Assembly: GCA_963839955.1 (NCBI GenBank)
Contig: CAWIXB010000001.1
Span: 3,672,248-3,736,247 of the forward strand
From: an uncultured Actinomycetota bacterium
Lineage (GTDB): Bacteria > Actinomycetota > Actinomycetes > JACCUZ01
Length of the DNA stretch: 64,000 bases
Reading direction: 5' to 3'
Numbering within the stretch: the first letter of the stretch is position 1; every line of letters starts with the position of its first letter. The notes beneath the pieces were generated by a model that did no database searches, was not told the DNA's origin, and was given only the letters and a program-made list of their open reading frames with translations. Positions 9,394 to 52,641 of the stretch are shown piece after piece. A program made the position numbers and the translations under genes.

Positions 9394-9478
9394 GGAGGGT
9401 TCGCATAGTGGCCGAGTGCATGCGCCTTGAAAGCGCACGACGGGAGACCGTCCGTGGGTTCAAATCCCACACCCTCCG
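9394..9478 (+). tRNA. tRNA-Ser (anticodon TGA)
   Basis: Folded by hand. Acceptor GGAGGGT/ACCCTCC, D-stem GCA/TGC, anticodon stem TGCGC/GCGCA with loop CTTGAAA. Long variable arm GACGG-GAGA-CCGTC, T-arm GTGGG-TTCAAAT-CCCAC. CCA is not encoded. Confidence 0.9.
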
Positions 9479-9523
9479 CCCGGACCGGGACTGAGCGACC
9501 TGGGTCGCCGGCGAACCGGTGGG

Positions 9524-10489
9524 TCAGTTCAGCTCGGCGTGCAGGACGACGGCCGGCTGCCAGGCGTTGGACCCCAGCAACGACTCGGACGCAATGGCGG
9601 TCATCCAGTCGAAGATCGTCAGCTCCGCGTCGTCGAGCATCCGCTGCACCACGGCCGCCTCGAGCAGACGACCGGGCGCGTAGCGCGCCCACTGCGTGAC
9701 GAAGCGGCCTTCGAGAAGCCGGTAGGTGACACCGTCGCGCGAGCCCAGGGTGAAGGCGACGGTGGCGTCGTTGAGCTGCATCGTCGCCAGCTCGAGCTGG
9801 CCGGCGGCGGCCATGGAGCGCATCCGCAGGTTCCATGTGTAGCGCCGAGCCTCGTCGTCGAGCTGCGCGACGCGCCCATGGGAGTGGTCACGCTCGCGGT
9901 GGCACCGTTCCAGGGCAGGAAGGGCAGACGCGATCAGGCGGGGGTCGTCGGTGAAGGCGACCGTCGCGTCGAGGTCATCACGGTGCAGCCGGTTCCGGGC
10001 CTTCCGCAGGGTCCGGTTCGCTCCGTGCGACAAGTAGGACTCGACGTCGCCCGCGCCGTTTCGCTCGATGATAGGGATGGGCGCCACGGACGTCGACGCA
10101 CCGCCGAGGCCAGCAGCGAAGGAAGCCACGATCTGGCCAGGGATCAGCGGGCCGAGGTGCAGAGCCTTCAGGCGTCGCTCAGTCGCAGCGGCCATGACCG
10201 CGCGACCGAGGCCGGCCGCGATGATGGGCTCGAGTGCGAGCACCGCGCCGCGCTGGACGGTGTCGGTGCCGAGCAGCTGCGTCACTCCGTGCGGGTCGTC
10301 GACGAAGACGACACTGGCGGAGAGCTGCCCGCGCCCGTCACGGGCGACGACCGCCCACGGCTCGGCGTCGACAAGCGAGTCGAGGGTGGCGCGCAACCAC
10401 GGCTCGCGGGCGGTGAGAGGAGCGCCGCAACGAGCGGCCAGCGTGTCGAACTCCTCGAGCATGCCGCGCAGGGACTCGACGCCGGACAC
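9524..10489 (-). CDS. GNAT-superfamily acetyltransferase (CelD/BioF2/FemAB-like domain)
   Basis: 321 aa with clean composition. The family call comes from the C-terminal YRLLEGRF..YAPG..L pattern, so it is only moderately supported. GTG 10489 is the earliest possible start because an in-frame TGA lies just upstream. Confidence 0.6.
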   Translation of the reverse strand: MSGVESLRGMLEEFDTLAARCGAPLTAREPWLRATLDSLVDAEPWAVVARDGRGQLSASVVFVDDPHGVTQLLGTDTVQRGAVLALEPIIAAGLGRAVMAAATERRLKALHLGPLIPGQIVASFAAGLGGASTSVAPIPIIERNGAGDVESYLSHGANRTLRKARNRLHRDDLDATVAFTDDPRLIASALPALERCHRERDHSHGRVAQLDDEARRYTWNLRMRSMAAAGQLELATMQLNDATVAFTLGSRDGVTYRLLEGRFVTQWARYAPGRLLEAAVVQRMLDDAELTIFDWMTAIASESLLGSNAWQPAVVLHAELN

Positions 10490-12893
10490 GACGCCCGCCG
10501 ACTGGCGGACGGTGCCTTGCGCGAGCGGCAGATGCTGTCGTGCTCAGCACCGAGGGCCGACCGGGGCGTTGTGGCGACCTGCTGAGAGGTCTTCCGCCTC
10601 GGTCCGTGCGTCGATCCAGCGCTCCAGGGCCGACGGGCTCCAGGGCCGGGGAGTAGTAGAAGCCCTGCACCTTGTCGCACTGGTAGGCGGCGAGCTGCCG
10701 GGCAGCGCCCTCGTTCTCGACCCCTTCGGCGACCATGGTCATGCCGAGGGCGTGCGCCAGGTCGATGGTGGAGCGCACGATCGCCGCGGCGCGCGGGTCA
10801 TCGGCCATCGGCTTGACGAACGATCGGTCCAGCTTCAGCTCGTCGATCGGAAGCTCTCGCAGGTACGCCAGGCTGGAGTACCCGGTCCCGAAGTCGTCGA
10901 CCGAGACCCGGATGCCGGCGTGGCGGAGCTCCGCGAGGATGTCGCGGGCGCGTTCGCGGTCGCCCATGAGGAAGTCTTCGGTGATCTCCAGCTCGAGCGC
11001 GTCCGACGCGAGCCGGCGCACGGAGAGCAGCCCGCGCACCCGAGCGGGGAGCTCGGCGTCCACGAGGGACGACGCCGACAGGTTCACCGCCACATTCAGG
11101 TGCCGTCCCGCGGCGCGCCAGACACGCACCTGGTCGAGGGACACCTCGAGGACGGCGTCGGTGAGGTCGCGCATCAGGCCGGCGTCCTCGACCAGCGGCA
11201 GGAAGTCGCCGGGCAGCAGCAGGCCCCTCGTGGGGTGCTCCCACCGTACGAGCGCCTCGACGCCGACGACGGCGCCGCTTCTCGCGTCGAGCTTCGGCTG
11301 GTAGTGCACGACGAGGCTGCGGTCGACGATCGCCGACCGGAGGTCTTCGAGGTCACGCAGACGCTGCTCGTCATGCCCGGCGTCGAGGTCGTCGCTGTAC
11401 ACGCGGTGGCCGACCTTGGTCGCCTTCGCCTCGTACATGGCGCGGTCGGCACGTCGCAGCAGCGTCGAGACGTCGCCGCCCTGGCTGGGGTAGAGCGCGA
11501 TGCCGATGCTTGCGGTGAGCCGCACGGTCACGCCGTCCAGGCTGAAGGGTGCCTCCAGAGCGTCGCGGAGCCCGCGAGCGGCCGAGATGCCCGCTGCCTC
11601 GTCGGCGCCGTCGAGCAGGGTGGCGAACTCGTCACCCCCGAGGCGGATCAACCGGTGTTCGTGTTCGCTCGACTCCAGCGAGGCGAGCGAGGCGAGCAAG
11701 CGTGAGGTGACATGGCGCAGCAGCGTGTCGCCTGCCTGGTGGCCGAGGCTGTCGTTGACCTCCTTGAACCGGTCGAGGTCGAGCAGCAACAACGCTCCGG
11801 GCGCGCCGTCCGGACCGAGACGGTGCGAGACCTCCTCGTAGAACGCGCGCCGGTTGCCTAGCCCGGTCAGCTCGTCGGTGAAGGCGAGGGTGTGGCTGTC
11901 GGCGAGGGAGGCGACCTCTCTGAAGGTGACGATGAGGCGGCCCAGCGCAGCGACCACAGTCGCGGCACAGAGCAGGATCGCCGCGAAGTTCAGCTGGTTG
12001 CTGTGGTCGTAGATCAGCGTCGCCAGCGCGGCGAGGGTGGCGACGACAGGGAAGCCGACCCGCACCCAGCTCGGCAGCGCCGTGTTGGCGGAGGCCATCG
12101 CCCGCCGGCCGGGGGCGAACGCGATGACCAGGGTCGCGACGACCCAGATCCCGTCGTTGAGGCCACCAGGCTGATAGGTCCCGTTGTTGGCCGAGAACAG
12201 GTACACGCCGTCGGCAAGGGAGAACATCGCCATACCGGCGGCGACGAACCAGAGCCCGACCGGAGGTCGCCAGTTGAACAGCGCCAGGACCGAGGTGACG
12301 ACGAGCAGCACGAGCACGTCGAGCACCACGTGTGCCAGCGTCGTGACGACGGCAGCCTTGCTGCCTCCGGTCTCGGCGACGATCGGGTTGAAGAGGGCGG
12401 CGGCGACACCGGCGACGGCGAGCCCGCCGACGAGACCGTCGAGCCACAGGCTCAACGGCACGTCGTCGACGGTGCCACGCACGAACAGCACCAGCGCGAT
12501 GAGCGCGCAGGGGTAGAACGACAGCCACAGCCCGTCGGCGATCGACGGGAAGGGCTCGGGGTCCTGGGTACGGACGAAGATCGTCCAGAACACGTTCCCC
12601 GACCCGTAGATCGCGAGCCCGACGCCGAGGAAGAGGTAGCTGGCCCGGTAGGTCGTGGCGCCGCGGGCGCGAACGAAGCAGACCACGGCGCTGAGCTCGT
12701 ACGCGATGTTGTTCAGGAACCCGTCGAGCAGGAGGTTGTAGCCCGGGTTCGGGCGGACGCCCGGGATGGTCGAGACCAGGAAGACGCCGAAGACGAGAGC
12801 GGTCGCTATGTAGACGCCGGTGGAGAGGCGCATTCGAGGGCGGCGCGGCGACAGTTGAGGCAGGACAGCCCTCATCGTGGGAACGCCAGTCAC
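10338..12893 (-). CDS. Membrane-anchored diguanylate cyclase/phosphodiesterase (GGDEF + EAL), C-terminus apparently frameshifted
   Basis: Multi-TM N-terminus. GGDEF domain motifs DLDRFKEVNDSLGHQAGD and RLGGDEFA. EAL domain motifs EALVRW, ELEITE, DDFGTGYSSL, KLD and QGFYYS. The last roughly 100 codons are an Arg-rich tail overlapping the next gene (see findings). Alternative starts are ATG 12875 and the later MRLSTGV. Confidence 0.8.
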   Translation of the reverse strand: MTGVPTMRAVLPQLSPRRPRMRLSTGVYIATALVFGVFLVSTIPGVRPNPGYNLLLDGFLNNIAYELSAVVCFVRARGATTYRASYLFLGVGLAIYGSGNVFWTIFVRTQDPEPFPSIADGLWLSFYPCALIALVLFVRGTVDDVPLSLWLDGLVGGLAVAGVAAALFNPIVAETGGSKAAVVTTLAHVVLDVLVLLVVTSVLALFNWRPPVGLWFVAAGMAMFSLADGVYLFSANNGTYQPGGLNDGIWVVATLVIAFAPGRRAMASANTALPSWVRVGFPVVATLAALATLIYDHSNQLNFAAILLCAATVVAALGRLIVTFREVASLADSHTLAFTDELTGLGNRRAFYEEVSHRLGPDGAPGALLLLDLDRFKEVNDSLGHQAGDTLLRHVTSRLLASLASLESSEHEHRLIRLGGDEFATLLDGADEAAGISAARGLRDALEAPFSLDGVTVRLTASIGIALYPSQGGDVSTLLRRADRAMYEAKATKVGHRVYSDDLDAGHDEQRLRDLEDLRSAIVDRSLVVHYQPKLDARSGAVVGVEALVRWEHPTRGLLLPGDFLPLVEDAGLMRDLTDAVLEVSLDQVRVWRAAGRHLNVAVNLSASSLVDAELPARVRGLLSVRRLASDALELEITEDFLMGDRERARDILAELRHAGIRVSVDDFGTGYSSLAYLRELPIDELKLDRSFVKPMADDPRAAAIVRSTIDLAHALGMTMVAEGVENEGAARQLAAYQCDKVQGFYYSPALEPVGPGALDRRTDRGGRPLSRSPQRPGRPSVLSTTASAARARHRPPVGGRRVRRRVPARHARGVRHAGRSLRRSSHRPRAVVARHPRLACRRRAVGGRRP

Positions 12894-13140
12894 GCTGCAC
12901 CTCCCTGTTTTCGCCTAGACCCTGAATCTCGGATGTCTGGGCACTGACCTTGAGAGTCGGTCGGCGCTCAGGGCAGCGCCGCGCGGCCACCGGGGCGTCG
13001 GCCGAATCGGACCGAGGCAGTTGGGGCGGTTTGTCCGACCTCACCCACCGGACGGGAGGCCAACGCCAACCGAACCAACACCGCCTAGCCGCCCCCGAGC
13101 CCCCCCGAGCCCCCGAGCCCCCAAGCCCCACCCCTCGCAG

Positions 13141-13217
13141 TTCGACCACGTTGGGTAGGCGCAGCAGTGCCTCAACAGGCGGAGCGGCCTGTTGCGGCAG
13201 TGCTGTGCCTGTTGCGG
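13141..13217 (-). repeat. REP/MITE-like palindromic element, copy 1 (reverse orientation)
   Basis: TTCGACCACGTTGGGTAGGCGCAGCAGTGCCTCAACAGG-cggagcgg-CCTGTTGCGGCAGTGCTGTGCCTGTTGCGG. Confidence 0.85.
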
Positions 13218-14036
13218 CTGGGCCTAGCCGAGCGAGGGCAGAGCCGCGTGCCGGCGGTGGGCGCGCGGCGAAGGTCGGCGGTCCAGGCGTACGCCGAGCA
13301 GCGCCCGGGCGGCGTCAACCGTCCCTCCATCACCAGCGCGCACAGCAGGGTGTCCTCGACGACCTCGCGCTGAGCCAGGCTGCTCCGACCCGGTGCAGCG
13401 ACGACGCCAGCGACCGCAGGCTCTCGACGGCGTCGGACCAGCGCGACTCGATCACAGCGGCAGGCCCACCGCACAGCCGCGCCGCGACGTCGCGCAGGCA
13501 CGAGTCCTGGCTCGCGTCCAGGTGCGCCTGCAGCCTGCGTGCGTCGACGTCTCCCGCGGCGGTGCCCCAGGGCGGCGTGCATCGCCGTGAACGCGGTCTG
13601 CGGACGTTCGAGCAGGTCGACCTCGACGGCGTCGAGCACCTCGCGCACCTCACGATCCGGAGACTGCCAGGCCCCCCTGACGTGGCAGCGCCAGAGCAAC
13701 GAGGCCGAGTCGACGAGCGCCCGCATTCCGAGAACCGCCGGCGGCGCCAGCTGCTGGGCGTACCGCACCCGCACGGCCGCGACGTCGCCCCAGGCCAGCT
13801 CGTGCAGGGCCGCATGCCACGAGAAGTGGGCGCGGTGCGATGCCCCGCCCGCCGAGCTCGATCCAGGGGCTGAGCCAGCCGAGCCCGGCGGCGTGCTCGC
13901 CGGTCTCGTAGAAGACGTGCGCGCGGGCGTGCGTTCGCGACCGTTCAACAAGACCTCTCCTATTGTCAGTTTTATCGGCCGAAAATATGCGGTCCTCGAC
14001 CTCGATCACAAGCGCGCCACATCCCTTGGCGTACAT
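13172..14036 (-). pseudogene. Degraded gene, possibly TTC38-like TPR family; N-terminally truncated with at least 3 frame changes
   Basis: Protein-like segments hop between three minus frames. They read HVFYETGEHAAGLGWLSPW, then HFSWHAALHELAWGDVAAVRVRYAQQL...ERPQTAFTAMHAALG. These continue as GDVDARRLQAHLDASQDSCLRDVAARLCGGPAAVIESRWSDAVESLRSLASSL, then LAQREVVEDTLLCALVMEG. Confidence 0.5.
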
Positions 14037-14044
14037 GTCGCGAG

Positions 14045-14121
14045 CCGCAACAGGCGAGGCAGTGCCTCAACAGGTCGGCAGACCTGTTGAGGCACTGCTG
14101 CGCCTACCTAACGTGGTCGAA
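14045..14121 (+). repeat. REP/MITE-like palindromic element, copy 2 (forward orientation)
   Basis: CCGCAACAGGCGAGGCAGTGCCTCAACAGG-tcggcaga-CCTGTTGAGGCACTGCTGCGCCTACCTAACGTGGTCGAA. Confidence 0.85.
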
Positions 14122-14179
14122 TCCCCGGGAGGCTGGGCCTTCCAGCTGCGTGCTAGCGTCAGGCGTTCCACAACAGCAC

Positions 14180-14270
<91 letters not shown>

Positions 14271-14388
14271 CACCAGGTGCGCAGCGCGTCCGTCGCCGAC
14301 CAGGCACGAGTCTGGGCGGCTGACCGGACGCGCGCGGCGTCCCCGGTGGCTCGCGGCACGACAGCTCCCGTCCGCCTCTGGACAGGAG

Positions 14389-15048
14389 ATGAGTGACTTG
14401 GCTATGCCAGTCGAAAAGGCCGGGCACGCCGACAACGAGCCGGCCGACACGGACACCACGTCCCCGACCGGTCTGCCGACTCGTTGGCGCACCGTCGACA
14501 TCGTCGTCGCGTCGGCGATCGCGGTCGCCTTCGGTGTCGTGTTCTGGGCGTGGGGCCTGCTGTGGAACAGCATGCAGGCCGCGTTCGCCGGCTTCCCGCC
14601 GGCACAGGGATTCATGTACGGCGTGTGGCTGCTGCCCGGCGTCCTCGGCGCCCTGGTGATCCGCAAGCCCGGCGCGGCCCTGTACACCGAGCTCGTTGCC
14701 TCCATCGTGTCCGCGCTGCTGGGCACCGCCTGGGGCCTCTCGGTCGTCGCCTACGGCCTGGTCGAGGGCGCGGCTCCGGAGCTCGTCTTCGCCCTGCTCC
14801 TCTACCGGTCGTGGCGGCTGCCGACGGTCGTCGTCGCGGGTGCGGTCGCCGGGGTGGCAGCCGCGCTGCTCGACCTGTCGTTCGCCTACACCGACTGGCC
14901 GGGCACCTGGCAGCTGACCTACGTGGCCGTGCTCGCCGCCAGCTCCGCTGTCATCGCCGGCGCAGGCGCCTGGGTGATCTCGCGCGCGCTGGCCCGCACC
15001 GGCGTCCTGGCGCCGTTCCCGGCCGGCCGCGAGCAGGCCGCCGTCTGA
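14389..15048 (+). CDS. ykoE: ECF transporter S component, YkoE-type (HMP/thiamine precursor)
   Basis: 219 aa, about 6 TM segments. It sits directly downstream of the TPP riboswitch and is followed by a duplicated ATPase and a T component. The start may instead be TTG 14398 or ATG 14404, because AGGAG abuts ATG 14389. Confidence 0.75.
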   Translation: MSDLAMPVEKAGHADNEPADTDTTSPTGLPTRWRTVDIVVASAIAVAFGVVFWAWGLLWNSMQAAFAGFPPAQGFMYGVWLLPGVLGALVIRKPGAALYTELVASIVSALLGTAWGLSVVAYGLVEGAAPELVFALLLYRSWRLPTVVVAGAVAGVAAALLDLSFAYTDWPGTWQLTYVAVLAASSAVIAGAGAWVISRALARTGVLAPFPAGREQAAV

Positions 15049-27877: not shown

Positions 27878-27917
27878 GCCTTCATTGTCCTGGTCTGGCT
27901 GCCGGCGCCCGCCTCCG

Positions 27918-27994
27918 CCCCAACAGGCGCAGCACTGCCTCAACAGGGCGGCACGCCTGTTGAGGCAGTGCTGCGCCTACCTAACGTGGTCGAA
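27918..27994 (+). repeat. REP/MITE-like palindromic element, copy 3 (forward; best-preserved)
   Basis: Perfect 22-bp stem (27926-27947 pairs with 27956-27977), an 8-nt loop, and the conserved tail TACCTAACGTGGTCGAA. Confidence 0.9.
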
Positions 27995-28003
27995 TCGGCA
28001 GGC

Positions 28004-43538: not shown

Positions 43539-43774
43539 CGCTCGATTCTGCCGCACGGGCCATCCGAGTGGATGTGTCCAGTCGGATGACCCTTCTGCCG
43601 AACTCAAGGGAGACGCGCCGGCACGCCTCCGCAGGTGTCGTCCGGCCCGGTCACGCGGAGGCGCCTGGTCTCAAGTTTCGTGCACGACGGCTCGCCCACA
43701 GACGCGGCGCCGGTTCCGGGAGGAGGGGCCCGGGACCGGCGCCGTTCCAATGTCAGGCGCACCTCACACGCCCG

Positions 43775-43858
43775 TGCGCGAGGGGGGAGTTGAACCCCCA
43801 CGTCCTTTCGGACACACGGACCTGAACCGTGCGCGTCTGCCTATTCCGCCACTCGCGC
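43775..43858 (-). tRNA. tRNA-Leu (anticodon CAG)
   Basis: Folded by hand. Acceptor GCGCGAG/CTCGCGC, anticodon stem CACGG/CCGTG with loop TTCAGGT. Variable arm GTCC-GAAA-GGAC, T-arm GGGGG-TTCAACT-CCCCC. Confidence 0.9.
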
Positions 43859-49475: not shown

Positions 49476-50872
49476 CGCCCGACACCGATGTCCTGTTCGG
49501 CGACCGATACCTGCTCACCGACCGCATCGCCGGCGGCGGCATGGGCGAGGTGTGGACCGCGACCGACCAGGTGCTCGGCCGCGACGTCGCGGTGAAGGTC
49601 CTGCGCCGCGAGTACGCCGACGACCCGACGTTTCTGCAGCGGTTCCGGGCCGAGGCCCGGCACACCGCGCTGCTCTCCCACCAAGGCATCGCCGCGGTCT
49701 TCGACTACGGCGAGGACGACGGCTCGCCGTACCTCGTGATGGAGCTGGTGCGCGGCGAGCCGCTCTCGAGCCTCATCATGCGCGACGGAGCCATGACGCC
49801 GGAGCAGGTGCTCGACGTGGTGGCACAGTCGGCCTTCGCCCTACAGGTGGCCCATGACGCCGGGCTGATCCATCGCGACATCAAGCCCGGCAACCTGCTG
49901 CGTACGCCGGACGGCACGGTGAAGATCACCGACTTCGGCATCGCACGCGCCACCGACTCCGTACCGCTGACGCAGACCGGCTCGATCATGGGCACGGCCA
50001 ACTACATCTCGCCCGAGCAGGCCAGCGGGACCTCGGTGACACCGGCCAGCGACATCTACTCCCTCGGCGTGGTGGCCTACGAGTGCCTCGCCGGTCGGCG
50101 GCCCTTCGACGGGAACACGCCGGTCAGCGTGGCGCTCGCCCAGGTGCGCGAGGAGCCGCCGGCACTGCCGGCCGACATCCCCGGCCCGATCGTCGCCCTG
50201 GTCATGCGGATGCTCGCGAAGGACCCGGCCGCGCGGCCGGCGAGCGCCGGCGACGTCGGCCGGGAGGCGCAGGCCCTGCTCGCGTCGGGTACGCCGCTGG
50301 CCGCAACCCCGCAGACGCGCACGATGAAGGCGCCTCTCGACACCGACGCCACGCGCCAGGTGGCCTCGCCGAGCCGCCCCACGAGCAGGGTTCGCGTCCC
50401 ATGGGTCGTGGCGCTCGCCGTGCTCGCCGTACTGCTCGTCCTCTTGGTGCGCGCGTGCGCGACCGAGGCCACCTCACCCGACAACGCCGGGAACGCCGGG
50501 GGCGCCGGATCGAGCGGCAGTGCGAGCCCGACCCGGAGCGCCACCACGCAGGCAGCCACATCGGTCCTGGTGAGCGCCGCCGACTACGTCGGCCAACCGG
50601 TCGCGGAGGCGCGCGCGGCTCTTGTCGCGGACGGGCTGCGAGTCGATGTGGTCGCCGCCGGCAAGGGCGCCGAGCGTCCCGTAGGTACCGTGGAGGACGT
50701 GTCACCCACCGGTGAACTCGAGCGCGGCAGCCTGGTGACGCTCTCGTTCGTCGGCGAGACGACGGAGCAGGAACCGGACGACGGTGAGAAGGATGAGAAG
50801 AAGGGCGACGACGACGAGAAGGCCGACGACGAGCCGGGCGAGTCGAAGAAGAACCGCCCGGGTTCGGGCTGA
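49472..50872 (+). CDS. pknA: Ser/Thr protein kinase PknA-like
   Basis: GGGMGEV, HRDIKPGN and DFGIA motifs, one TM segment and an acidic tail. Confidence 0.85.
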   Translation: MTPDTDVLFGDRYLLTDRIAGGGMGEVWTATDQVLGRDVAVKVLRREYADDPTFLQRFRAEARHTALLSHQGIAAVFDYGEDDGSPYLVMELVRGEPLSSLIMRDGAMTPEQVLDVVAQSAFALQVAHDAGLIHRDIKPGNLLRTPDGTVKITDFGIARATDSVPLTQTGSIMGTANYISPEQASGTSVTPASDIYSLGVVAYECLAGRRPFDGNTPVSVALAQVREEPPALPADIPGPIVALVMRMLAKDPAARPASAGDVGREAQALLASGTPLAATPQTRTMKAPLDTDATRQVASPSRPTSRVRVPWVVALAVLAVLLVLLVRACATEATSPDNAGNAGGAGSSGSASPTRSATTQAATSVLVSAADYVGQPVAEARAALVADGLRVDVVAAGKGAERPVGTVEDVSPTGELERGSLVTLSFVGETTEQEPDDGEKDEKKGDDDEKADDEPGESKKNRPGSG

Positions 50873-50884
50873 GGGAGCGTTGGG

Positions 50885-52641
<1,757 letters not shown>

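What the first reader, a model, noticed from the sequence alone, without database searches (positions are those of the whole stretch)
27918..27994. Family of roughly 77-nt GTAG-headed palindromic intergenic elements (REP/MITE-like), four copies in 64 kb
The same element occurs at four sites:
- 13141-13217 (reverse orientation)
- 14045-14121 (forward)
- 27918-27994 (forward)
- 57803-57878 (reverse)

The consensus in the forward orientation is CCGCAACAGG-CGCAGCAsTGCCTCAACAGG-N8-CCTGTTGAGGCAsTGCTGCGCC-TACCTAACGTGGTCGAA. Copy 3 forms a perfect 22-bp stem with an 8-nt loop.

Copies 2 and 3 differ at one stem position on both arms in a complementary way. That pair is G:C in copy 2 and C:G in copy 3, so pairing is maintained. 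The loops differ in all four copies, while the tail AACGTGGTCGA is conserved.

Read from the tail side, every copy has GTAG immediately 5' of the stem. This is the hallmark of REP elements mobilised by RAYT (IS200/IS605-like Y1) transposases. All copies are intergenic: after serS, between convergent genes, and flanking a pseudogene. I do not recognise this particular sequence family.
Basis: partly seen in the sequence, partly recalled or inferred. Interest (0 to 1): 0.75.

Follow-up and report, generated by a model that had tools for sequence, protein, structure and literature searches.

The report
Hairpin DNA repeats with conserved tail
Four copies of an ~86-base hairpin-forming non-coding DNA repeat from an uncultured soil actinomycete belong to a previously undescribed repeat family, and in related genomes the same repeats bracket a DNA-binding nuclease gene, which suggests a repeat-plus-enzyme partnership like REP/RAYT but with a different enzyme.

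Summary
There are four copies, none expected by chance, at 13138-13223(-), 14039-14124(+), 27912-27997(+) and 57799-57884(-). Each has a 5' heptamer CAACAGG, a 23-bp hairpin with an 8-nt loop, and a conserved 3' tail CTACC-N-AACGTGGTCGAAYC.

The family matches no Rfam family and no searched paper. I found relatives only in uncultured Actinomycetota MAGs and soil metagenomes. Across genomes the tail and the top of the stem are conserved. The middle of the stem is genome-specific but stays complementary: 11 of 23 pairs show changes on both sides. Asymmetric and fully palindromic forms share one stem within a genome, which points to concerted evolution of a DNA-level repeat.

The REP/RAYT reading is only partly supported. 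A GTAG is present, but the stem is far longer than in described REPs. A further 13-nt tail is conserved, more deeply than GTAG. No Y1 transposase appeared in the 387 kb sampled, which is too little to exclude one.

In 8 of 8 related loci (two paralogous syntenic sites), these repeats bracket an AbiEi-type wHTH fused to a Vsr-like endonuclease, tails outward. The bracketing copies carry the host genome's own stem variant. That nuclease is my candidate partner; this is inferred, not shown.

The parts
13138..13223 (-). Copy 1 of the repeat (asymmetric form A). It has 3 stem mismatches and is the weakest hairpin.
   Evidence: 90.3 bits; z -2.5. It lies downstream of ORF 13172-13951(-), whose last codons and stop are inside it, and about 245 nt upstream of the GGDEF-EAL gene 10338-12893(-).
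14039..14124 (+). Copy 2 (form A).
   Evidence: 95 bits; z -7.5. It lies between the start of ORF 13172-13951(-) and the TPP riboswitch 14176-14278(+).
27912..27997 (+). Copy 3 (form A), the finding's own copy, with a perfect 23-bp stem.
   Evidence: 98.7 bits; z -8.1. It fills most of the 126-nt spacer between the serS stop (28004) and the HAD-hydrolase start (27877), and it is antisense to both genes.
57799..57884 (-). Copy 4 (form A), with 4 stem mismatches.
   Evidence: 89.1 bits; z -5.8. It lies between the convergent DUF5324 gene (57024-57749 +) and the PspC-domain gene (57899-58171 -).
27921..27927 (+). 5' heptamer CAACAGG of copy 3. It is a direct repeat of the top of the left arm and is complementary to the top of the right arm.
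   Evidence: In relatives L003, L004 and L006 the three heptamers change together (GGACAGG / GGAGAGG / CCTGTCC).
27925..27947 (+). Left arm of the copy 3 hairpin (alignment columns 14-36).
27948..27955 (+). 8-nt loop of copy 3. Its sequence differs between copies.
27956..27978 (+). Right arm of the copy 3 hairpin (alignment columns 45-67). The right arm is better conserved than the left arm.
27979..27997 (+). 3' tail ACCTAACGTGGTCGAATCG. With the last stem bases it reads CCTACC (GGTAGG on the other strand). The core ACGTGGTCGA is the most widely conserved part of the superfamily.
13087..13129 (-). G-run tract just 3' of the copy 1 tail (tandem GCCCCCGA x4.6 on the + strand). It may be part of the element or its preferred neighbourhood.
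   Evidence: The mean G fraction is 0.53 after 39 true tails and 0.39 after 27 chance sites, p 2.5e-8.
57749..57808 (-). 21-nt tandem repeat (2.8 units) that reiterates the end of the copy 4 tail together with its 3' flank.

Best explanation
The four sites are copies of an ~86-nt non-coding, DNA-level dispersed repeat. It is probably a non-autonomous mobile or gene-converting element, not an RNA gene.

Anatomy: a 5' heptamer CAACAGG; a 23-bp hairpin whose top is CAACAGG/CCTGTTG; an 8-nt variable loop; and a conserved unpaired 3' tail CTACC-N-AACGTGGTCGAAYC, often followed by G-runs.

Shown:
- The family occurs in several uncultured Actinomycetota genomes.
- The tail and the top of the stem are conserved between genomes.
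- The middle of the stem is genome-specific and compensatory.
- Asymmetric (A) and fully palindromic (B) forms share one stem variant within a genome.
- In related genomes two inverted copies, tails outward, bracket a syntenic gene (seen at two paralogous loci) that encodes an AbiEi-type winged-helix DNA-binding module fused to a Vsr-like PD-(D/E)XK endonuclease. Where dispersed copies from the same genome were available for comparison (three genomes), the bracketing copies carry that genome's own stem variant.

Inferred:
- This protein recognises the tail through its wHTH, as AbiEi antitoxins bind inverted repeats.
- It nicks at or near the extruded hairpin.
- That activity propagates or homogenises the repeats.
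- The arrangement is therefore analogous to REP/REPIN with RAYT, but with a different enzyme class.

In the window the copies occupy spacers, mostly at gene ends. There the strong hairpin may secondarily act as a transcription barrier or an mRNA 3'-end stabiliser.
For: - Four copies against 0 expected by chance.
- No Rfam family matches.
- Relatives were found only in Actinomycetota MAGs and soil metagenome contigs.
- The hairpin covaries. With 9 copies, 93.7% of cells are paired, 9 of 23 pairs change on both sides, and covariation is 0.377 against 0.137 in shuffles (0/500). With 19 copies the values are 85.8%, 11 of 23 pairs, and 0.338 against 0.138. Slid controls give 30-50% paired.
- The stems are genome-specific: AGCACTGCCT in the window, TGGCCGGCGA in MFD02159, GGGCACAC in contig_4931.
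- There is no G.T versus A.C bias (15 vs 11), and orientation relative to neighbouring genes is not fixed, so a DNA-level role fits better than a one-strand RNA role.
- Nuclease link: 8 of 8 loci of the gene have hairpin-plus-tail repeats on both flanks, tails outward. The loci are L009, L019, L020, L022, L024, L030, L033 and L037, in two paralogous syntenic contexts.
- 2 of the 7 true hits of the gene-blind DNA scan of genome contigs lie beside this gene.
- Bracketing and dispersed copies share the genome's own variant in L019/L029, in L010/L015/L017 and in L024.
- Protein: the AF2 model has pLDDT 94. Its N-terminal part matches Rv2827c (1ZEL) and AbiEi (6Y8Q). Its C-terminal part matches Vsr (1CW0, prob 0.99) and the catalytic domain of homing endonuclease I-Bth0305I (3R3P, prob 0.97). 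PADLOC gives AbiEi at E 1e-21.
- The D...ExD...K residues are invariant or near-invariant.
- AbiEi-family proteins bind inverted repeats (PMC7319586).
- Short-read contigs break inside the repeats (L021, L031, L038), as expected for multi-copy DNA.
Against: - The nuclease gene is not in the window, and its presence in the window's genome is untested.
- Orthologous loci are not independent, so the association rests on essentially two independent loci plus the unbiased scan.
- In the window a tails-outward pair (copies 1 and 2) brackets an unrelated ORF. The A4 profile scores it at E 0.43 and it is a domain of unknown function. Such pairs are therefore not exclusive to the nuclease gene.
- No insertion event was resolved. 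The serS-HAD spacer of relative L026 lacks the element but is too diverged to define breakpoints, and the L019/L020 comparison failed in the same way.
- No target-site duplication is visible.
- Vsr-like/AbiEi proteins are not known transposases.
- Exact-tail matches are few in the representative MAGs (4, 2 and 1), so high copy number is not demonstrated outside the window's genome and the contig_4931 genome.
Confidence: 0.5

Rival explanations
1. These are classical GTAG-type REP elements mobilised by a RAYT (IS200/IS605-like Y1 transposase) encoded elsewhere in the genome.
For: - GGTAGG directly abuts the stem, and the CTACC columns are invariant in 19 copies.
- The copies are intergenic and often lie between convergent genes.
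- No target-site duplication or terminal inverted repeat is seen in form A, which fits single-strand HUH chemistry.
- RAYTs are single-copy, so missing one in the sampled DNA is expected.
Against: - The 23-bp stem and 86-nt unit compare with 6-13 bp stems and 20-40 bp units in the 24 described GTAG families (PMC3733652). That survey's text does not mention actinobacteria.
- 13 further conserved bases lie beyond GTAG, and diverged relatives keep ACGTGGTCGA but lose GTAG.
- No RayT-like ORF or HUH/Y motif was found in 387 kb.
- The gene found bracketed by the repeats is a different one.
Confidence: 0.12
2. It is a MITE: a deletion derivative of a conventional (DDE-type) insertion sequence whose terminal inverted repeats end in TCGACCACGT...ACGTGGTCGA. 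Form B and the ~225-bp tails-outward pair in L003 would be the miniature elements, and form A would be a rearranged or solo end.
For: - Form B copies carry the tail inverted at both ends (L002, L013, L016, L019, L022).
- L003 has a ~225-bp tails-outward pair.
- Assemblies break at the repeats.
Against: - No transposase ORF lies between or near any pair in the window or in any locus fetched.
- No target-site duplications are seen.
- Form A, the only form in the window, has no inverted terminus, yet its 5' end is conserved across genomes.
- Strong compensatory maintenance of a 23-bp hairpin is not expected of DDE-type terminal inverted repeats.
Confidence: 0.1
3. It is a set of protein-binding or regulatory sites, not a mobile element. 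The tail is the operator of the AbiEi-like regulator, or a site for another DNA-binding protein, and the dispersed copies form its regulon or act as structural or insulator sites.
For: - The tail is conserved far more deeply than the hairpin sequence.
- AbiEi-family proteins autoregulate through inverted repeats (PMC7319586).
- Repeats lie on the promoter side of the gene in all loci.
Against: - Many copies lie between convergent gene ends, where there is no promoter to regulate (window copy 4; L002, L004, L006, L012, L015, L017, L029).
- The repeats also sit downstream of the nuclease gene.
- Genome-specific stems shared by all copies in a genome need copying or homogenisation between sites, not independent operator evolution.
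- Occupancy is patchy between relatives.
Confidence: 0.13
4. It works at the RNA level, as a family of intrinsic terminators, mRNA 3'-stabilising hairpins or a small RNA gene, and the conserved tail is an RNA motif.
For: - The hairpins are very stable.
- Many copies sit just after stop codons.
- Some G.U pairs occur.
Against: - Orientation relative to the upstream gene is not fixed: copy 3 is antisense to serS and HAD, and L014 is antisense to its neighbours.
- No T-run terminator signature or promoter was found.
- Wobble-type mismatches are as common on one strand as on the other (15 vs 11).
- No Rfam family matches.
- Genome-wide homogenised stems are not expected for independent terminators.
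Confidence: 0.07

Closest known systems
REP / REPIN elements with RAYT (GTAG-tagged REP superfamily; Nunvar 2010 PMC2817692, Bertels & Rainey 2011 PMC3116915, Di Nocera 2013 PMC3733652)
   Same: - Short GC-rich intergenic palindromes with a GTAG next to the stem.
- Subfamilies with complementary stem changes.
- Singletons as well as inverted arrangements.
- A preference for spacers at gene ends.
- A syntenic, apparently vertically inherited gene (found at two paralogous loci) bracketed by inverted copies of the genome's own repeat variant.
   Different: - The stem is 23 bp and the unit about 86 nt, against 6-13 bp and 20-40 bp.
- There is an extra conserved 13-nt tail, and its core ACGTGGTCGA is conserved more deeply than GTAG.
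- A 5' heptamer repeats the top of the stem.
- G-rich 3' flanks are common.
- The host is uncultured Actinomycetota.
- The bracketed gene encodes an AbiEi-wHTH/Vsr-like nuclease, not an HUH Y1 transposase.
MITEs, bacterial miniature inverted-repeat transposable elements (such as those reviewed in PMC3184786)
   Same: - Small, non-coding and dispersed.
- Form B and the L003 pair have inverted termini.
- They fold into long hairpins.
- They break short-read assemblies.
   Different: - Form A has no inverted terminus.
- No target-site duplication is seen.
- No parental IS with a recognised transposase was found.
IS200/IS605-family ends and their palindrome-associated derivatives (PATEs); recalled from my own knowledge
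   Same: - A subterminal hairpin followed by a short conserved single-stranded stretch.
- No terminal inverted repeats and no target duplication.
- An asymmetric element that depends on strand and structure.
   Different: - No TnpA(Y1) or TnpB gene was found nearby.
- There is a single hairpin rather than distinct left and right ends.
- The stem is much longer.
AbiEi antitoxin operators (S. agalactiae AbiEi; M. tuberculosis Rv2827c; PMC7319586)
   Same: The bracketed protein has the AbiEi fold (1ZEL, 6Y8Q; PADLOC AbiEi), and that family binds inverted repeats near its own gene.
   Different: - There is no AbiEii (DUF1814) toxin neighbour.
- A Vsr-like nuclease domain is fused at the C-terminus.
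- Repeats lie on both sides of the gene and are dispersed over the genome.
- The repeats are hairpins of about 86 nt, not ~23-bp operators.
Free-standing Vsr-like / EDxHD homing endonucleases (I-Bth0305I, PDB 3R3P)
   Same: The C-terminal domain of the bracketed protein has this nuclease fold, and the gene is a compact cassette bounded by repeats, as selfish nuclease genes can be.
   Different: - The gene is syntenic and apparently vertically inherited, with 46-73% protein identity between loci.
- No intron or intein context is present.
- The target is unknown.

Membership tests
GTAG-type REP / RAYT system | A GTAG (GTRG) tag, unpaired, at one end of the palindrome. | tested here: met
   GGTAGG abuts the stem in all four window copies, and the CTACC columns are invariant in 19 copies. 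Two caveats apply. The AG of GTAG is base-paired. Diverged relatives lack GTAG.
GTAG-type REP / RAYT system | A small unit of 20-40 bp with a stem of about 6-13 bp. | tested here: not met
   The stem is 23 bp and the conserved unit is about 86 nt, against the ranges given in PMC3733652.
GTAG-type REP / RAYT system | A RAYT (Y1, PF01797) gene in the genome, typically flanked by the REPs. | tested here: inconclusive
   Searches with E. coli RayT and an HUH/Y motif over the six-frame translation of 387 kb found nothing. That is at most about 2% of any one genome, and whole genomes could not be fetched.
GTAG-type REP / RAYT system | High copy number (tens to hundreds per genome), mostly extragenic. 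| tested here: inconclusive
   There are 4 copies in 64 kb of the window and 5 in 42 kb of the contig_4931 genome. Only 4, 2 and 1 exact-tail matches occur in three whole representative MAGs. The source genome is not in the collection.
MITE | Terminal inverted repeats. | tested here: not met
   The window copies (form A) begin with CCGCAACAGG and end with GTCGAAYC, which are not inverted. Only form B relatives have inverted termini.
MITE | Target-site duplication and a parental IS with the same ends. | tested here: inconclusive
   No direct repeats are visible at the borders of the copies. The empty-site comparisons are too diverged to use. The only cassette with these ends encodes a protein that is not a known transposase.
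Any Rfam RNA family | A covariance-model score at or above the family's gathering threshold. | tested here: not met
   In the window only the TPP riboswitch and a tRNA pass. Around copy 3 there are only generic hairpin hits to miRNA models, far below threshold.
AbiE type IV toxin-antitoxin (for the bracketed gene in relatives) | An AbiEi-fold antitoxin. | tested here: met
   PADLOC gives AbiEi at E 1e-21. Foldseek matches 1ZEL and 6Y8Q.
AbiE type IV toxin-antitoxin (for the bracketed gene in relatives) | An adjacent AbiEii (DUF1814 nucleotidyltransferase) toxin gene in an operon. | tested here: not met
   The neighbours are fba and DUF3151 at one locus, and GT87 and Ala_racemase_N at the other.
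Vsr-like PD-(D/E)XK nuclease (for the bracketed gene) | The nuclease fold together with conserved acidic and Lys catalytic residues. | tested here: met
   Foldseek matches 1CW0 (prob 0.99) and 3R3P (prob 0.97, TMt 0.67). D244 is invariant, and E255, D257 and K261 are conserved in at least 90% of 38 sequences. Activity has not been tested.

The most novel reading that the evidence does not exclude
A new kind of repeat-enzyme partnership exists in uncultured Actinomycetota. A vertically inherited AbiEi-wHTH/Vsr-like endonuclease gene (two paralogues, each with its own repeat type) is bracketed by inverted hairpin repeats. Its product recognises the ACGTGGTCGA tail and propagates or homogenises dozens to hundreds of ~86-nt hairpin copies across the chromosome. 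This would be a functional analogue of REPIN-RAYT built on a PD-(D/E)XK nuclease instead of an HUH transposase.
Probability: 0.38. Interest if true: 0.85.

Novelty: new variant of a known kind. Interest (0 to 1): 0.7.

Why it matters
Small palindromic repeats are a long-standing puzzle of bacterial genome architecture. Only the REP/RAYT pairing has a clear enzyme, and it is known mainly from Proteobacteria.

This case adds three things:
- A well-defined family in a poorly known actinomycete clade, with unusually clean evidence that the hairpin itself is maintained: genome-specific compensatory stems next to an invariant tail.
- A concrete, testable candidate partner of a different enzyme class.
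- A possible function for the many orphan 'AbiEi-domain + nuclease' genes of actinobacteria that have no toxin partner.

On the practical side, the repeats break short-read assemblies of these genomes and sit next to housekeeping genes and a riboswitch, so they matter for annotation.

Tried and rejected
1. Composite transposon, copies 1 and 2 around a decayed transposase or nuclease gene. Rejected. The ORF 13172-13951(-) has 153 homologues aligned in one frame. These carry no Pfam domain, or are C-terminal parts of ~900-aa NAD_binding_9 proteins. The AbiEi-Vsr profile scores the region at only E 0.43. My earlier inference of frameshifts from GC3 phase was not borne out.

2. First genome-contig scan. 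It gave 0 hits because the pattern began with a T that is specific to the window's stem. Dropping it gave the true relatives.

3. Chance hits discarded: L005, L008, L011 and L018 (coding or lower-GC DNA); L014 1951-2034 (coding); and viral contigs L035 and L036.

4. Empty-site and breakpoint mapping. The serS-HAD spacer of L026 lacks the element but cannot be aligned. L019 against L020 downstream of SpoU also cannot be aligned. No boundaries or target duplications could be defined.

5. PDB sequence search with the protein profile found nothing relevant. Only the fold search was informative.

6. Type-2 palindromes (GAYCACGT-WWW-ACRTGRTC) are absent from the window.

7. Terminator and promoter consensus scan around copies 1 and 2 found nothing.

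8. Strand bias of wobble mismatches showed none.

Full report
**Observation**

- A 26-nt core pattern hits only these sites, against 0.00 expected in shuffles.
- The 11-nt tail AACGTGGTCGA occurs exactly four times without mismatch.
- The repeat finder reports no other dispersed family in the window, and it extends the similarity to about 86-88 nt.
- A covariance model built later finds only these four copies in the window, at 89-99 bits. The next hit scores 18-19 bits and is a generic hairpin.
- Copy 3 has a perfect 23-bp stem and an 8-nt loop.
- DNA folding z-scores are -8.1 (copy 3), -7.5 (copy 2), -5.8 (copy 4) and -2.5 (copy 1).
It is also A:T in copy 4 but C.C in copy 1.
- The right arm and tail are much better conserved than the left arm.

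**Setting**

The window is 70.9% G+C. It comes from an ENA metagenome assembly, ERZ25039516 contig_4873, 1.88 Mb. An identical SerS is also recorded on a 3.75-Mb contig. The nearest SerS proteins are 86% identical or less and come from MAGs labelled Nocardioidaceae, Actinomycetes or Sporichthyaceae. The organism is therefore an uncultured actinomycete.

Where each copy sits:
- Copy 3 fills most of the 126-nt spacer between the serS stop and the start of a HAD hydrolase gene, and it is antisense to both.
- Copy 4 lies between the convergent DUF5324 and PspC genes.
- Copy 2 lies between the start of ORF 13172-13951(-) and a TPP riboswitch.
- Copy 1 lies at the 3' end of that ORF. The ORF's last ~15 codons and its stop are inside the element.

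That ORF is not clearly a pseudogene: 153 homologues align with it in a single frame.

**Relatives elsewhere**
- Rfam has nothing at gathering thresholds. Around copy 3 a permissive scan gives only sub-threshold hits to miRNA hairpin models.
- The tail strings occur in no relevant paper.
- A first scan of 185,579 species genomes found nothing, because its pattern began with a window-specific base.
- The 19-base tail pattern found 5 true and 2 chance hits in JGI metagenomes.
- In the genome collection it found 7 true and 3 chance hits. The true hits are in MAGs labelled Sporichthyaceae, uncultured Actinomycetota MFD02159 (four loci) and Actinomycetota BP_174 (two loci), plus a 72.7%-GC contig of a 'Spirochaetaceae' MAG that looks misbinned.
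- Viral contigs gave only chance hits.

**Anatomy from the comparison**

Form A, the form in the window, reads: [CC]GCAACAGGCG, a ~10-nt variable stretch, xCAACAGG, an 8-nt loop, CCTGTTG, the complementary variable stretch, then GCGCCTACC(Y)AACGTGGTCGA(A/C)YC.

The variable middle of the stem is different in each genome but stays complementary.
- With 9 copies, 93.7% of cells pair, 9 of 23 pairs change on both sides, and covariation is 0.377 against 0.137 in shuffles (0/500).
- With 19 copies from at least 7 genomes the figures are 85.8%, 11 of 23 pairs, and 0.338 against 0.138 (0/500). Slid controls give 34-45% paired.

Within a genome all copies share the same stem variant. This includes form B copies, in which the tail is also present, inverted, on the 5' side, so that the whole element is one long palindrome (L002, L013, L016, L019, L022). 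This is concerted evolution, produced by recent copying or by gene conversion.

Further points:
- G.T-type and A.C-type mismatches are equally common (15 vs 11), and orientation relative to neighbouring genes is not fixed. The constraint therefore looks DNA-level rather than that of a one-strand RNA.
- The 5' heptamer repeats the top of the left arm and changes with it: GGACAGG / GGAGAGG / CCTGTCC in L003, L004 and L006. I cannot explain this.
- The 40 nt beyond the tail are G-rich, 0.53 against 0.39 at chance sites (p 2.5e-8). G-run tandem repeats lie next to copy 1, and the tail end of copy 4 is triplicated. I cannot explain this either.
- More diverged relatives keep only the core. L016 7634-7725, L024 and L022 have different hairpins and end in GAYCACGT-WWW-ACRTGRTC palindromes without GTAG.

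**The bracketed gene**

In L009 two elements, tails outward, bracket a single 355-aa ORF. A 59%-identical ORF abuts the element in L010. These two loci came from the gene-blind DNA scan.

The protein family has 470 hits at E<1e-5. I fetched loci for six further members. Counting L009, all 8 of 8 fully visible loci have a hairpin-plus-tail repeat on each flank, tails outward. They fall into two conserved syntenic contexts:
- fba - X - DUF3151: L009, L019, L020 (L010 is the same context with one flank visible).
- GT87 - X - Ala_racemase_N: L022, L024, L030, L033, L037.

In each locus the two flanking copies resemble each other. Where dispersed copies from the same genome are available, they carry the same variant (L019 with L029; L010 with L015 and L017; L024 internal). 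Short-read contigs that carry the gene end inside the repeats (L021, L031, L038).

The protein:
- The AF2 model (pLDDT 94) matches Rv2827c and S. agalactiae AbiEi in its first ~200 residues.
- Its C-terminal ~120 residues match Vsr endonuclease and the I-Bth0305I homing-endonuclease catalytic domain.
- PADLOC calls the N-terminal part AbiEi at E 1e-21.
- The putative catalytic D...ExD...K residues are invariant or nearly so.
- No AbiEii toxin gene is adjacent.
- AbiEi-family proteins are known to bind inverted repeats (PMC7319586).

**RAYT test**

phmmer with E. coli RayT and an HUH...Y motif screen found nothing in the six-frame translation of 387 kb of window plus loci. Because a RAYT would be single-copy, this does not exclude one in the unseen 98% of each genome.

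**Interpretation**

Shown:
- It is a new, structured, dispersed DNA repeat family of uncultured Actinomycetota.
- The hairpin is maintained by compensatory change and is homogenised within genomes.
- The terminal motif is conserved.
- The family is consistently associated with an AbiEi-wHTH/Vsr-like nuclease gene in relatives.

Inferred:
- The nuclease binds the tail and nicks at the hairpin, and so spreads or homogenises the copies. This would be a REP/RAYT-like arrangement with another enzyme class.
- In the window, the copies act at most secondarily as transcription barriers.

Weak points:
- The gene is not in the window.
- The association rests on two independent loci plus the unbiased scan.
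- Copies 1 and 2 bracket an unrelated ORF in the same geometry.
- No insertion event, boundary or target duplication could be resolved.

**Comparison with known families**

The element works most like REP/REPIN-RAYT, but it fails the size criterion of described GTAG REPs (PMC3733652). Its deepest conservation lies outside GTAG. Form A fails the terminal-inverted-repeat criterion for MITEs. It resembles IS200/IS605 ends in having a hairpin followed by a conserved single-stranded stretch, but no Y1 or TnpB gene is nearby. It belongs to no Rfam family.

I rate it a new variant of a known kind. As a bare repeat family it would be a new member of the class of small palindromic repeats. If the nuclease partnership holds, it would be considerably more novel.

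Noticed in passing
window 14176-14278 (+): A TPP riboswitch (Rfam RF00059, 67.7 bits) lies 52 nt downstream of copy 2. It is followed by a gene with an ABC_cobalt/ECF-type permease domain (14389-15048). The repeat therefore sits immediately upstream of the riboswitch's likely promoter region.
   Followed up: partly
It has 153 homologues (E<1e-3) aligned in one frame over residues ~31-217. The domain has no Pfam family. It occurs as stand-alone ~230-250-aa proteins and as the C-terminus of ~900-aa NAD_binding_9 proteins. The C-terminal ~15 codons and the stop of the ORF are supplied by copy 1.
   Followed up: partly
window 13087-13129; L009, L019, L020 and L022 flanks: G-run tracts lie on the element strand directly 3' of the tail. 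The mean G fraction is 0.53 against 0.39 at chance sites, p 2.5e-8. They could form G-quadruplexes. It is unknown whether they are target sequence, part of the element, or a by-product.
   Followed up: partly
window 57749-57808: A 21-nt unit, made of the last bases of the copy 4 tail plus about 15 nt of flank, is tandemly repeated 2.8 times.
   Followed up: no
L024 2397-2482, 9846-9880 and 11030-11085; L022 9860-9950 and 11030-11095; L037 flanks; L016 7634-7725: A second repeat type occurs in relatives. It has a different hairpin and ends in a short palindrome GAYCACGT-WWW-ACRTGRTC. It brackets the second paralogue of the AbiEi-Vsr gene and also occurs dispersed. It is absent from the window.
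   Followed up: partly
L013, L030 (GCA_026786145.1, JAJAYQ01): Contigs of a MAG labelled Spirochaetaceae are 72-73% G+C. They carry actinomycete-type synteny (ftsZ-ftsQ; rpsF-ssb-rpsR-rplI) and a SerS 82% identical to the window's. The taxonomic label or the binning looks wrong.
   Followed up: no
L021, L031, L038 (Logan short-read contigs): Contigs that carry the AbiEi-Vsr gene begin and end inside the flanking repeats. This suggests the repeats collapse or break short-read assemblies of these genomes.
   Followed up: no
upstream of the AbiEi-Vsr genes in L019, L022, L024, L030, L033, L037 and L010: A conserved motif CTGTGGAYGG lies between the inner edge of the upstream repeat and the start codon. 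It may be a promoter or operator element of the gene.
   Followed up: no
window 49869-50028 and 51294-51459: Two adjacent ORFs share 76-78% identical stretches typical of Ser/Thr protein kinase catalytic loops (HRDIKPxN ... DFGIA). They look like tandem PknA/PknB-like paralogues.
   Followed up: no
window 9394-9480 (+) and 43774-43858 (-): ARAGORN finds tRNA-Ser(TGA) and tRNA-Leu(CAG). Only the first was reported by the Rfam gathering scan.
   Followed up: no
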